The position numbers are program-made. Shown piece by piece: positions 3,001-6,000 of a stretch of DNA of 64,000 nucleotides. Within the stretch, counting starts at the first letter, position 1, and each line of letters starts with the position of its first letter. The DNA comes from Escherichia coli (GTDB lineage: Bacteria; Pseudomonadota; Gammaproteobacteria; Enterobacterales; Enterobacteriaceae), in assembly GCF_030384885.1 (NCBI RefSeq), contig NZ_CP128613.1; one strand, written 5' to 3'.

Positions 3001-6000
3001 AGACATATACACCACGAAAAAAATTGGATATCAGAAATAAAATGACAATAATGCGGTGGATTATATAGGCATAAAAGATAAATGAGATAGTATTTTCATC
3101 GGTGCGATATTGAACATTGATTTAAATAATAGGTTTGGCTTTGTTGTTTTTATTGTGAATGATATTTAATTTATGAATATATTAAGAAGAAGCCTTGTTT
3201 GGTTGCCTTAAATCGACAAAAGGCATTGAGGCGCTTCTGTGTAGTCTCTGACCTTATCTTAATTATTAATAAATACTATTTATTCTTTGTTTGTATTCAT
3301 TGGGTTGATTATTAAGATGCCGTTCGTTGCTGTTGCAATCTGTTTGTCACCGTTAATTATTTGTTATCCACAGAGATATGGAATGCGATCTGCTGATGAT
3401 TAAAATTGAAAAAGTAATTAATAAAAATGACATTAAGGCATTTATCGCTTTTCCGTCATCACTTTATCCCGATGATCCAAACTGGATACCCCCTTTGTTC
3501 ATTGAACGCAGCGAGCATTTGTCGGCGAAGAATCCGGGGACGGACCATATTATCTGGCAGGCGTGGGTAGCAAAAAAAGCGGGGCAGATAGTCGGGCGGA
3601 TTACCGCGCAAATCGATACCTTGCACCGCGAGCGTTACGGTGACGATACCGGTCATTTTGGCATGATTGACGCCATTGATGATCCGCAGGTTTTTGCCGC
3701 TTTGTTTGGCGCAGCGGAAGCATGGTTGAAGTTACAAGGTGCCAGTATGATCAGCGGGCCTTTCAGCCTGAATATCAATCAGGAAAGCGGATTACTGATT
3801 GAAGGTTTCGACACTCCGCCCTGTGCGATGATGCCGCACGGTAAACCGTGGTATGCCGCGCATATTGAACAATTGGGTTATCACAAAGGTATTGATTTAC
3901 TGGCGTGGTGGATGCAACGAACCGATCTCACTTTCTCTCCGGCGCTAAAAAAACTGATGGATCAGGTACGCAAAAAGGTGACCATTCGTTGCATCAATCG
4001 TCAGCGGTTTGCTGAAGAGATGCAGATCCTGCGTGAGATTTTCAACTCTGGCTGGCAGCACAACTGGGGATTTGTGCCGTTTACCGAACATGAATTCGCT
4101 ACCATGGGCGATCAACTAAAGTATCTGGTACCGGACGATATGATCTACGTCGCTGAGATTGGTTCTGCACCCTGCGCGTTTATTGTCGGCTTGCCGAACA
4201 TCAACGAGGCGATTGCCGATCTGAACGGATCGCTCTTTCCCTTCGGCTGGGCAAAATTGCTGTGGCGCTTAAAAGTCAGCGGTGTGCGAACTGCGCGAGT
4301 GCCGCTGATGGGCGTGCGTGACGAGTATCAGTTCAGCCGCATCGGCCCGGTGATTGCGCTGTTATTGATTGAAGCCTTACGCGATCCGTTTGCTCGCCGG
4401 AAGATCGATGCGCTGGAAATGTCATGGATCCTCGAAACCAATACAGGCATGAATAACATGCTGGAACGCATTGGAGCGGAGCCGTACAAGCGTTACCGAT
4501 TGTATGAAAAGCAGATTTAATACCAGATCCCATTAAGCGCACGGACGGTCATTCGGGAGAGTGTATAGATGAACAGATTTAACATCAGATCCTATTAAGC
4601 GCAGGGGCGGTCCCCTCGCCCCTCAGGGAGAGGGTTAGGGTGAGGGGGAAAACTCGGCTCACATTCCCCCCTTGTTCATCTCCAGTGGCACCGCCGAGCG
4701 AATCAAATGGTGGCCTTCCAGTTCGATATCGTGGAGATTCTTTTTCACGGTCCGCACATGATCACGTGCGGCGCGCTGGGCGACGTGCGGCAGTCGCTGC
4801 AACACCGCGTTGTAGATCCGCGCATGTTGGCGATCGATCTGCTTTTTTTGCTGTGGTCGATGGTAGAGATTATTTACGCTGGCAAACACTGAATTAAACA
4901 TCAGATCGGTCAATGATTGCAGCGTAAAAACTAGCACCTGATTGTGGGAAGCCTGACAAATGGCAAGATGGAAAGCATGATCCAGCTGCGCGTGTTCGAT
5001 CAGCGAAATTTCTTTGTTGTTTTCACTGGCGGCGAGCATTTTTTCATAACAGCGGGTTATCAAAACAAAATCCGCCTGGGTTCCCAGCGTAGCTGCCAAC
5101 CTTGCCGATTCGCCTTCCAGCAATGCGCGAACGTCGAGTAGATCGTATAGCGTTCGCGGCTGTGTACTGAACAGATGGATCAGCGGGCTGGTGTCCTGCA
5201 CGCGATTAAGGCGTGCGACACGAGAATCGCGCCCCTGTGCTGTTTCAATAATCCCGCGTCCGCGCAGCACGGTCAGCCCTTCACGCAGTGCGGAACGCGA
5301 GAAGCCGAGCTTTTCACACAGTCGACGCTCCGAAGGAAGCGGCTGACCGACCTTCAGCACGCCGTCGATAATTAACCGTTCGATACTCTCTGCAACCACT
5401 TCGCAAATAGGGCGACGTTCATCTTTCATTCCCGGACCTCGTGCACAGGTAGGACCAATTTTTCTGTTCTTGATTCGCAAAACACGCACATCACGTAAGT
5501 GATTATGTTACATCAATTTAACATTAAGTTAACCAAGGCAAGGTCACAGAGCTGGAAAAAAAATGGTCTGACCGGTAGCTAAAGAGATAGACGAAAACGA
5601 AAAGCCCGCTTAATAACTGTTCACAGAAGCAGCGCGCAAAAATCAGCTGCCACACAACACAACAAAGCGAACCCTACTCATGAGCATCTTGTACGAAGAG
5701 CGTCTTGATGGCGCTTTACCCGATGTCGACCGTACATCGGTACTGATGGCACTGCGTGAGCATGTCCCTGGACTGGAGATCCTGCATACCGATGAGGAGA
5801 TCATTCCTTACGAGTGTGACGGGTTGAGCGCGTATCGTACGCGTCCATTACTGGTTGTTCTGCCTAAGCAGATGGAACAGGTGACGGCGATTCTCGCTGT
5901 CTGCCACCGTTTGCATGTACCGGTAGTGACCCGTGGCGCAGGCACCGGACTTTCTGGCGGTGCGCTGCCGCTGGAAAAAGGTGTGTTGTTGGTGATGGCG

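What the first reader, a model, noticed from the sequence alone, without database searches (positions are those of the whole stretch)
3016..3377. Strongly AT-rich divergent control region between the FAAL operon and yghO
About 360 bp with long A/T tracts (for example tttgttgtttttattgtgaatgatatttaatttatgaatatattaag) is the composition typical of H-NS-silenced, horizontally acquired promoters. Similar AT-rich blocks precede yghJ (about 14150-14600) and the SPFH/cmtB divergent region (53173-53547).
Basis: seen in the sequence. Interest (0 to 1): 0.3.

Follow-up and report, generated by a model that had tools for sequence, protein, structure and literature searches.

The report
AT-rich promoter region of ceramide genes
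This is an ordinary but unusually A/T-rich stretch of non-coding DNA between two oppositely oriented gene sets that together encode E. coli's little-studied ceramide (sphingolipid) pathway. It most likely holds their promoters and is a plausible, unproven binding site for the silencing protein H-NS.

Summary
Window 3016-3377 has 29.8% GC against 51.7% for the window (z = -4.3). It is the second most AT-rich of 29 intergenic regions.

It is the 371-bp divergent intergenic region of an E. coli chromosome, between aasR(FAAL)-epi/cerR-acpR-spt on the minus strand and yghO (aca/bCerS) on the plus strand. Published work identifies these five genes as the dihydroceramide synthesis genes of E. coli B.

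The region has two parts:
- A 94-bp block next to aasR (3007-3100) is almost invariant in about 4,100 E. coli genomes. It carries a perfect TATAAT (3065-3060, minus strand) and a GGTG ribosome-binding site.
- The other 277 bp evolves at or above the synonymous rate and keeps only its AT-richness. That AT-richness is also kept in nine other genera.

No RNA family, stable RNA fold, conserved small ORF or conserved regulator site was found.

Composition fits H-NS binding: 68.6% AT over 500 bp and an A/T-hexamer density above that of the proven H-NS target upstream of sslE. However, the tract is short, the flanking genes have normal E. coli GC and GC3, and no binding data exist.

"H-NS-silenced" is plausible but untested. 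"Horizontally acquired composition" is not supported. Interest is low.

The parts
3007..3377 (.). Whole divergent intergenic region between aasR (FAAL) and yghO; 371 bp, 30.2% GC
   Evidence: Annotation of the identical sequence in strain 2013C-4282; GC statistics
3007..3100 (-). Conserved block: putative aasR core promoter plus a 5' UTR of about 46 nt
   Evidence: Pairwise diversity is 0.007 here, against 0.056 at third codon positions of the flanking genes in E. coli, and 0.020 against 0.143 across Escherichia. 4144 of 4145 genomes are at least 95% identical.
3060..3065 (-). Perfect -10 hexamer TATAAT for leftward (aasR) transcription; weak -35 ATCTCA at 3088-3083; inferred transcription start near 3053
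   Evidence: Own promoter scan; sequence; partly kept in Pseudocitrobacter. Not mapped experimentally.
3010..3013 (-). GGTG Shine-Dalgarno-like element 3 nt upstream of the aasR ATG (3006). The motif GGTGTATATG is invariant across Escherichia, Citrobacter and Pseudocitrobacter
   Evidence: Alignment A1; sequence
3025..3052 (+). The only site passing the tool's sigma-70 criteria (TGGATA-16-AATAAT), pointing towards yghO. Its -10 and the aasR -10 form the inverted repeat ATAAT-N7-ATTAT (3048-3064)
   Evidence: 1 site found against 2.9 expected in shuffles, so not above chance
3016..3188 (.). AT block A, 24.3% GC.
3189..3250 (.). Spacer of normal GC (46.8%), part of the most variable stretch of the region (3191-3260; diversity 0.10 in E. 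coli, 0.24 in Escherichia)
3251..3377 (.). AT block B, 29.1% GC, next to yghO. It holds a weak promoter-like site TTGCAA-16-AATTAT (3333-3360) and an ArcA-box-like GTTAATTATTTGTTA (3352-3366)
   Evidence: ArcA-like match p = 0.016, uncorrected for 21 motifs
3378..3445 (+). AT-rich (25% GC) 5' end of the yghO coding sequence. IS5 (K-12 lineage) and IS1 (strain MSB1_4I) deletion junctions fall here, at about 3418 and 3434
1297..3006 (-). aasR: fatty acyl-AMP ligase / specialised acyl-ACP synthetase, first gene of the leftward operon
   Evidence: Pfam AMP-binding and NCBIfam NF006624 at 873 bits; PMC9386255 Fig. 9
386..1300 (-). epi/cerR: NAD-dependent epimerase/dehydratase-family reductase
106..354 (-). 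acpR: specialised acyl carrier protein
1..106 (-). spt: serine palmitoyltransferase (cut by the window edge)
3378..4520 (+). yghO: aca/bCerS-type N-acyltransferase of ceramide synthesis
   Evidence: Annotation; PMC9386255 Fig. 9 names yghO ECD_02850 as aca; no Pfam or NCBIfam model hits it

Best explanation
The region is the shared control region for all five dihydroceramide-synthesis genes of E. coli.

Leftward transcription of aasR-epi-acpR-spt most likely starts at a sigma-70 promoter inside the conserved 94-bp block. That block has a -10 TATAAT at 3065-3060, an inferred start near 3053 and a 5' UTR of about 46 nt ending in a GGTG ribosome-binding site.

yghO is transcribed rightward from a less well-defined promoter.

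The remaining roughly 280 bp is fast-evolving DNA kept AT-rich. Together with the AT-rich first 68 nt of yghO, it forms a tract of about 430 bp (580 bp on a 100-bp <40% GC scan). This tract is predicted to be coated by H-NS and/or StpA as a 'short' promoter-proximal binding region. That would keep both promoters at low activity under laboratory conditions until some unknown signal relieves it.

Shown: the composition, gene context, conservation pattern, and absence of RNA or ORF features.
Inferred: promoter positions, H-NS occupancy and the repression itself.
For: Composition: 29.8% GC, z = -4.3, rank 2 of 29 intergenic regions.

Gene context: the flanks are the published E. coli B sphingolipid genes aasR, epi, acpR, spt and yghO/aca. 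The four leftward genes overlap or lie within 31 bp of each other.

Conservation:
- The 94-bp block has diversity 8-fold below third codon positions.
- It is at least 95% identical in 4144 of 4145 genomes.
- 4078 of 4128 genomes are below 95% identity to this window over the rest of the region.
- A perfect TATAAT and the invariant GGTGTATATG lie in the block.

AT-richness across genera: the region is 13-22 GC points below its flanking genes in all 20 orthologous loci, from Escherichia, Shimwellia, Citrobacter, Pluralibacter, Pseudocitrobacter, Serratia, Klebsiella, Cedecea, Hafnia and a Pseudomonas MAG. No sequence is conserved between genera outside the translation starts.

H-NS-like composition:
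- 68.6% AT over 500 bp, against 61.4% for bound sites.
- 16.7 A/T hexamers per 100 bp, against 2.1 for the window and 13.0 for the proven sslE target.
- TpA steps at 10.2 against 4.4 per 100 bp.

Circumstantial support:
- IS5 and IS1 junctions lie in the tract. IS5 insertion is reported to favour AT-rich, H-NS-bound DNA (PMC11677980).
- BL21(DE3) has an intact 376-bp copy of the region. With empty vectors it makes no detectable 3-oxo-sphinganine (PMC9386255).
Against: - No ChIP, footprint or hns-mutant expression data for this locus were found.
- The H-NS high-affinity motif tCGATAAATT is not enriched: one 2-mismatch hit in the region, and 69 hits in the window against 62 expected.
- Predicted curvature averages 7.3 degrees per turn, against 6.8 for the window, with a single peak.
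- Promoter-like sites are not more frequent than in shuffles, so the promoter assignments rest on one perfect hexamer plus conservation.
- The yghO-proximal part is not conserved above the neutral rate.
- Three of the 29 intergenic regions in this window are about equally AT-rich, so the composition alone is not exceptional.
- The lack of sphingoid product in BL21 could have other causes, such as missing substrate or post-transcriptional control.
Confidence: 0.6

Rival explanations
1. This is an ordinary divergent promoter region whose AT-richness has nothing to do with H-NS. Under this view the AT-richness reflects promoter and UP-element needs, easy DNA melting, low mRNA structure at two translation starts, and mutational drift towards A/T in unconstrained non-coding DNA. 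Expression would be set by specific regulators, such as envelope-stress, redox or phosphate systems, not by nucleoid proteins.
For: - Most of the region evolves neutrally or faster.
- Intergenic DNA in this window is 10 GC points below coding DNA anyway.
- Three of 29 intergenic regions are about as AT-rich.
- There is no H-NS motif enrichment and average curvature.
- An ArcA-box-like direct repeat overlaps the candidate yghO -10 (13 of 15 matches, p = 0.016 uncorrected).
Against: - The drop is 22 GC points here, twice the usual intergenic drop.
- It is reproduced in every genus, although the sequences themselves are unalignable. That argues for selection on composition rather than drift alone.
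- DNA this AT-rich over about 500 bp lies above the mean of H-NS-bound sites in K-12.
- None of 21 regulator or sigma consensus sequences scored significantly after correcting for multiple tests.
Confidence: 0.3
2. Classical xenogeneic silencing. Under this view the cluster is a recently acquired AT-rich island whose promoters and genes are coated by a long H-NS filament.
For: - The cluster is patchy among Enterobacterales and sits in different genomic contexts outside Escherichia; no glcC neighbour is found in L008-L025.
- It is absent or truncated in about 24% of complete E. coli genomes.
Against: - The coding sequences have host-like GC (50-55%) and GC3 (53-57%), matching the adjacent glc genes. 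Only acpR is lower.
- The tract with less than 40% GC is only 580 bp long.
- The locus is syntenic next to glcC in E. whittamii and other Escherichia lineages, so it is old in the genus.
- Long H-NS regions of more than 1 kb, not short ones, are the class enriched in foreign genes (PMC3064808).
Confidence: 0.07
3. The region hides an unannotated functional product, such as a small RNA, a riboswitch or leader, or a small protein. That would explain the conserved 94-bp block.
For: The block 3007-3100 is more conserved than the neighbouring coding DNA.
Against: - No Rfam match even at E <= 1.
- Folding energies are no better than shuffles on either strand (z = +0.2, +0.5, +0.6).
- No terminator-like site.
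- The ORFs of 20-38 aa lie partly in the hypervariable part and are broken by indels in other strains.
Confidence: 0.03

Closest known systems
sslE (yghJ) promoter region of E. coli, repressed by H-NS and StpA in a temperature-dependent way (Yang et al. 2007, as summarised in PMC5012682)
   Same: It lies 11 kb away in the same window. It is a 494-bp intergenic region of 28.9% GC with a similar A/T-hexamer density (13.0 against 16.7 per 100 bp), upstream of an envelope-related accessory operon.
   Different: For sslE, binding of purified H-NS and StpA and derepression were shown experimentally, and a transcription start and Fis sites were mapped. Nothing of the kind exists for the aasR-yghO region. 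The sslE region is unidirectional and shows a stronger predicted bend (23.8 against 18.9 degrees per turn).
'Short' (<1 kb) H-NS binding regions of E. coli K-12 (Kahramanoglou et al. 2011, PMC3064808)
   Same: It is an AT-rich tract of less than 1 kb, upstream of operons and flanked by genes of normal composition. This matches the class described as behaving like a conventional transcription-factor site and as a gentler modulator.
   Different: Membership requires measured occupancy, which is unavailable because K-12 has lost this DNA.
Caulobacter crescentus sphingolipid gene cluster (CC_1162-CC_1165 plus CC_1154)
   Same: It has the same five enzyme families: spt, acpR, aasR, epi/cerR and aca/bCerS. 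According to PMC9386255, Caulobacter and E. coli BL21 are the only two cases where all five are clustered.
   Different: In E. coli the acyltransferase gene is directly divergent from the four-gene operon, so a single 371-bp region can control the whole core pathway. In Caulobacter the genes are spread over several operons. Regulation of the E. coli genes is undescribed.
Silencer regions of bgl and proU (nucleation site plus spreading)
   Same: AT-rich DNA around a promoter with many TpA steps.
   Different: Those regions contain close matches to tCGATAAATT that nucleate binding (PMC2094087). This region has only one 2-mismatch match.

Membership tests
H-NS-bound / H-NS-silenced DNA | AT content at or above that of bound regions (mean 61.4% AT over 500 bp in K-12 ChIP-chip) | tested here: met
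   68.6% AT for 2942-3441. Only four places in the 64-kb window reach 61.4%.
H-NS-bound / H-NS-silenced DNA | High density of A/T-only 5-6-mers and TpA steps | tested here: met
   16.7 A/T hexamers per 100 bp against 2.1 for the window. TpA steps at 10.2 against 4.4 per 100 bp. The motif description comes from PMC3064808.
H-NS-bound / H-NS-silenced DNA | High-affinity nucleation motif tCGATAAATT or close variants | tested here: not met
   One 2-mismatch match in the region (3168-3177). The window total of 69 against 62 expected is not enriched.
H-NS-bound / H-NS-silenced DNA | Intrinsic DNA curvature | tested here: inconclusive
   Wedge-model mean is 7.3 degrees per turn against 6.8 for the window. 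One peak of 18.9 at about 3089 exceeds the 99th percentile. The model parameters were recalled from memory.
H-NS-bound / H-NS-silenced DNA | Measured H-NS occupancy, and derepression in an hns mutant | not testable with these tools
   No data found; K-12 lacks the region.
Xenogeneic (horizontally acquired) AT-rich island | Coding sequences with GC and GC3 below the host average, in a tract longer than 1 kb | tested here: not met
   aasR 52.5% GC / 52.8% GC3, epi 54.9 / 56.4, yghO 49.7 / 56.7, against 56-60% GC3 for the glc genes. The low-GC tract is 580 bp.
Sigma-70 divergent promoter region | Lies between divergently oriented genes with no other upstream gene to read through from | tested here: met
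   aasR is on the minus strand and yghO on the plus strand. The arrangement is kept in 20 loci from 10 genera.
Sigma-70 divergent promoter region | -35/-10 matches beyond chance | tested here: inconclusive
   A perfect TATAAT at 3065-3060 with a weak -35. The tool finds 1 site against 2.9 expected in shuffles.
Sigma-70 divergent promoter region | Purifying selection on the promoter-proximal DNA | tested here: met
   Met for the aasR side only: diversity 0.007 against 0.056 at third codon positions. Not met for the yghO side (0.050).
Sigma-70 divergent promoter region | Mapped transcription start sites | not testable with these tools
   No transcription-start data for strains carrying the region were found.
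Cis-regulatory RNA (riboswitch, leader) or small RNA | Match to a known family, or a thermodynamically or evolutionarily supported structure | tested here: not met
   No Rfam hits at E <= 1; fold z-scores +0.2 to +0.6; no terminator.
Bacterial ceramide synthesis cluster (Spt/AcpR/AasR/CerR/bCerS) as the regulated unit | Presence of the five gene families next to the region | tested here: met
   Domain hits for the FAAL, SDR and ACP proteins; spt from the annotation; yghO equated with aca in PMC9386255. The homology of YghO to Caulobacter bCerS was taken from that paper and not recomputed here.

The most novel reading that the evidence does not exclude
H-NS/StpA binding to this roughly 430-bp tract may be the main reason that E. 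coli's complete, enzymatically competent ceramide pathway is cryptic in the laboratory. On this reading, removing the silencer, or supplying the natural anti-silencing signal, would make ordinary E. coli strains such as BL21 or Nissle 1917 produce sphingolipids. The single divergent region would act as one switch for the whole core pathway.
Probability: 0.3. Interest if true: 0.5.

Novelty: new member of a known kind. Interest (0 to 1): 0.2.

Why it matters
About three quarters of complete E. coli genomes carry a five-gene ceramide pathway whose enzymes work when cloned. Its natural expression, product and role are unknown. This 371-bp region is the only obvious place from which all five genes can be controlled, so it is the natural target for reporter fusions, hns/stpA tests and promoter replacement.

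In itself it is a routine AT-rich promoter region and does not represent a new kind of element.

Tried and rejected
- **Rfam scan** at permissive threshold: nothing.
- **RNA folding** of both strands and of the putative 5' UTR: not better than shuffles.
- **Terminator scan:** none.
- **Small ORFs:** only 20-38 aa, and not preserved in other strains.
- **Repeats:** only short A/T-rich matches. They include two 16-17-nt direct repeats about 400 bp apart that look like chance.
- **H-NS motif search:** no enrichment.
- **Conserved 10-mers across genera:** only generic A/T words. Alignments between genera collapse outside the translation starts.
- **Screen of 21 regulator and sigma-factor consensus sequences** (recalled from memory) against 500 dinucleotide shuffles: only an ArcA-like match at p = 0.016, which is not significant after correction.
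- **Literature:**
  - No paper links H-NS to yghO's upstream region or to bacterial serine palmitoyltransferase.
  - The ETEC H-NS ChIP-seq paper has no H-NS peak table among its held supplements.
  - Searches on BL21 locus tags gave only the sphingolipid paper and a CRISPRi study with no expression data for the locus.
  - A search on an old annotation name (saframycin Mx1 synthetase) gave nothing.
- **Strain ST3 (NZ_CP121087.1) as a possible source of the whole window:** it is not collinear over the first part.
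Full report
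**Source and context.** The window is E. coli chromosome. Its first 15.6 kb is identical to strain 2013C-4282 (NZ_CP027579.1).

In that record the finding lies between two sets of genes:
- A fatty acyl-AMP ligase gene on the minus strand (1297-3006). It is followed by an NAD-dependent epimerase/dehydratase-family gene (386-1300), an acyl carrier protein gene (106-354) and spt.
- yghO on the plus strand (3378-4520).

Padilla-Gomez et al. 2022 (PMC9386255) name the E. coli BL21(DE3) genes as aasR (ECD_02851), epi (ECD_02852), acpR (ECD_02853), spt (ECD_02854) and aca = yghO (ECD_02850). [quoted passage not shown] They state that the five are clustered only in Caulobacter and E. coli BL21. The Klein laboratory calls the reductase CerR and the acyltransferase bCerS (PMC11087976).

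The "FAAL operon / yghO" region is therefore the only intergenic DNA from which the whole core ceramide pathway of E. coli can be controlled.

**The observation.** The quoted A/T string is at 3140-3186.
- GC is 29.8% for 3016-3377 and 30.2% for the annotated intergenic region 3007-3377. The window is 51.7%.
- Among all 362-bp windows, z = -4.3. Only the region upstream of sslE is lower.
- Against the 29 intergenic regions of at least 60 bp in the window (mean 45.4%, sd 7.7), it ranks second and lies about 2 sd below the mean. Two others are about as low: glcA-sslE at 28.9% and prohibitin-cmtB at 32.8%.

So the region is real and clearly non-random, but it is not unique even within 64 kb.

At finer scale the tract has four parts:

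| Part | Coordinates | GC |
|---|---|---|
| Block A | 3016-3188 | 24.3% |
| Spacer | 3189-3250 | 46.8% |
| Block B | 3251-3377 | 29.1% |
| First 68 nt of yghO | 3378-3445 | 25% |

**What is not there.**
- No Rfam family matches at E <= 1.
- There is no terminator-like site.
- RNA folds of either strand, or of the putative aasR leader, are no better than shuffles (z +0.2 to +0.6).
- The 20-38-aa ORFs are interrupted by indels in other strains.
- Repeats are short A/T-rich matches only.

**Evolution within Escherichia.** I aligned ten Escherichia sequences and compared the intergenic region with the codon positions of about 830 bp of flanking coding DNA.
- Third positions have a pairwise diversity of 0.056 in E. 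coli and 0.143 across the genus.
- The intergenic region as a whole has 0.061 and 0.123, so it evolves roughly neutrally.
- It splits sharply. The 94 bp next to aasR (3007-3100) has 0.007 and 0.020.
- The stretch 3191-3260, which contains the normal-GC spacer, has 0.10 and 0.24.

The same picture holds at scale. Over 3007-3100, 4144 of 4145 genomes are at least 95% identical to the window. Over 3101-3377, 4078 of 4128 are below 95%.

The sample was drawn evenly down a similarity ranking and is not random. The comparison between site classes is, however, internal to the same sequences.

**The conserved block.** Read on the minus strand it is ...ctcatttatcttttatgccTATAATccaccgcattattgtcattttatttctgatatccaatttttttcgtGGTGtatATG.
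- It contains a perfect -10 hexamer (3065-3060), a poor -35 (3088-3083) and an A/T-rich upstream flank. The single strong predicted bend is centred near 3089.
- A GGTG lies 3 nt before the ATG. GGTG is the 3' part of the extended Shine-Dalgarno sequence GGAGGTG (established knowledge).
- GGTGTATATG is invariant in Escherichia, Citrobacter amalonaticus and Pseudocitrobacter. The TTTTATG-N-TATAA stretch is partly kept in Pseudocitrobacter.

I therefore read the block as the aasR core promoter plus a leader of about 46 nt. This is an inference; no start-site data were found.

The only site that passes the tool's sigma-70 criteria is on the plus strand (3025-3052, TGGATA-16-AATAAT). One site against 2.9 expected in shuffles is not evidence. 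Its -10 and the aasR -10 form the inverted repeat ATAAT-N7-ATTAT (3048-3064). The two candidate promoters would therefore overlap and compete for RNA polymerase. This is speculative.

A weaker yghO-proximal candidate is at 3333-3360.

**Comparison between genera.** A scan of one genome per species with YghO found the same divergent FAAL-yghO arrangement in several places:
- four Escherichia lineages, next to glcC;
- Shimwellia, Citrobacter amalonaticus, Pluralibacter, Pseudocitrobacter, the Serratia marcescens group, Klebsiella indica, Cedecea, Hafnia and a Pseudomonas MAG, all without a glcC neighbour.

The intergenic region is 271-818 bp long. In every case it is 13-22 GC points below the flanking genes, and the flanking genes track the host GC.

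Nothing in it aligns between genera except the two translation-initiation regions. Composition, not sequence, is what is kept. That fits a role in promoter melting or nucleoid-protein binding better than a set of conserved operator sites.

A screen of 21 regulator and sigma consensus sequences gave only an ArcA-box-like GTTAATTATTTGTTA (3352-3366). Its p = 0.016 is not significant for 21 tests, and the consensus sequences were recalled from memory.

**H-NS.** Composition favours binding.
- The 500 bp centred on the region is 68.6% AT. High-confidence H-NS sites in K-12 average 61.4%, against 49.2% for random DNA (Lang et al. 2007, PMC2094087).
- Only four places in the window reach 61.4%. One of them is the sslE promoter, where H-NS and StpA binding and repression were shown (Yang et al. 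2007, as reported in PMC5012682).
- A/T-only hexamers are the kind of motif found in 96% of H-NS regions (PMC3064808). They occur at 16.7 per 100 bp here, against 13.0 at sslE and 2.1 in the window.
- TpA steps are 2.3-fold enriched.

Against binding:
- The Lang nucleation motif is not enriched.
- Mean predicted curvature is ordinary.
- The tract is short.

The flanking genes do not look foreign. aasR, epi and yghO have GC3 of 53-57%, like the glc genes at 56-60%. By contrast cmtB (38%) and the prohibitin gene (44%), beside the third AT block, do look atypical.

Kahramanoglou et al. distinguish two classes of H-NS region. Long regions (>1 kb) are enriched in acquired genes and are silencing. 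Short regions are promoter-proximal, behave like ordinary transcription-factor sites, and 40% of their target genes respond to hns deletion. If this tract is bound, it belongs to the short class.

**Circumstantial points.**
- K-12 has lost the region. Its match to the window starts only at about 3418, next to an IS5 that replaces everything up to yghQ.
- Strain MSB1_4I has an independent IS1-bounded deletion starting at about 3434.
- Both junctions lie in the AT-rich 5' end of yghO. IS5 is reported to favour AT-rich, H-NS-bound DNA (PMC11677980, citing Cooper et al. 2024).
- BL21(DE3) carries an intact 376-bp, 31.9% GC version of the region and the full cluster. Yet BL21(DE3) with empty vectors, or expressing an SPT alone, shows no 3-oxo-sphinganine-like lipid (PMC9386255). 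This is consistent with very low native expression but has other possible causes.
- No paper in the searchable library links H-NS to this locus.

The region is best described as the divergent promoter region of the E. coli ceramide-synthesis genes. It has a strongly constrained aasR promoter and leader block, and a fast-evolving remainder that stays AT-rich.

H-NS/StpA binding is likely on composition. I put occupancy at about 0.6 and a major repressive role lower than that. It is unproven, and it would be of the short, promoter-proximal type rather than xenogeneic silencing of foreign-looking genes.

The element is a new, undescribed member of a very common kind. Its interest comes from the pathway it controls, not from the DNA itself.

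Noticed in passing
window 14600-18990: The sslE / type II secretion (beta) locus is degraded in this window compared with strain 2013C-4282. Collinearity stops at 15592, about 1 kb into sslE. Two fragments matching gspC/D and gspD-F follow, at 98.3% and 96.6% identity. The window then resumes at the IS3 element next to tRNA-Phe, so roughly 29 kb, including the kps capsule genes, is missing. The AT-rich sslE promoter therefore now drives a truncated gene.
   Followed up: partly
window 3378-3398: The yghO start codon appears to have shifted in Escherichia. In all nine other genera a TAAGG Shine-Dalgarno sequence sits 6-7 nt before the ATG that corresponds to window 3396 (Met7). Escherichia has lost that TAAGG and has an in-frame ATG 18 nt upstream (3378), which is the annotated start.
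   Followed up: partly
window about 3418 and about 3434; loci L035 and L036: Two independent IS-bounded deletions end within 16 bp of each other in the AT-rich 5' end of yghO. One is IS5 in the K-12 lineage and the other is IS1 in strain MSB1_4I. Both remove the intergenic region and the ceramide genes.
   Followed up: partly
L033 (strain JE86-ST02), equivalent to window 3000-3010: An 11-bp deletion (TAGACATATAC) removes the aasR ATG and part of its ribosome-binding region in this strain. PGAP also places the FAAL start 33 nt further downstream in several strains that keep the ATG, including BL21.
   Followed up: no
window 3017-3034: Inside the otherwise invariant 94-bp block, this window's allele has two rare variants: a run of 7 A instead of 6, and G instead of A at 3034. 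Only 19 of 4145 genomes are at least 99% identical over the block. The rest of the intergenic region is also a rare haplotype: only 16 genomes are at least 99% identical and 50 at least 95%.
   Followed up: partly
window 3378-4520: YghO (380 aa), the presumed bacterial ceramide synthase, matches no Pfam-A or NCBIfam model.
   Followed up: no
window 52264-53991: Unlike aasR and yghO, the genes flanking the third AT-rich block have low GC3: prohibitin-family 43.6% and cmtB 37.8%. Only 1811 of 5426 genomes cover at least 80% of 51000-56000. This locus looks more like acquired DNA than the one in the finding does.
   Followed up: no
window 42710-43190: A fourth, milder AT-rich block lies upstream of galP: 38.5% GC over 481 bp, with a local minimum of 33.4%. 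It just reaches the 61.4% AT mark over 500 bp.
   Followed up: no
window 3352-3366: GTTAATTATTTGTTA matches a remembered ArcA-box consensus at 13 of 15 positions and overlaps the weak yghO-proximal -10. It is invariant in the six E. coli, E. whittamii and Escherichia sp. MOD1 sequences aligned but not in the other Escherichia lineages. It is not significant after multiple-test correction.
   Followed up: partly
L001 5855-6924 (strain 2013C-4282, outside the window): The lptF-like permease gene of the neighbouring operon of the same lipid cluster is annotated as frameshifted in the strain whose sequence is identical to the start of this window. It is intact in BL21(DE3).
   Followed up: no
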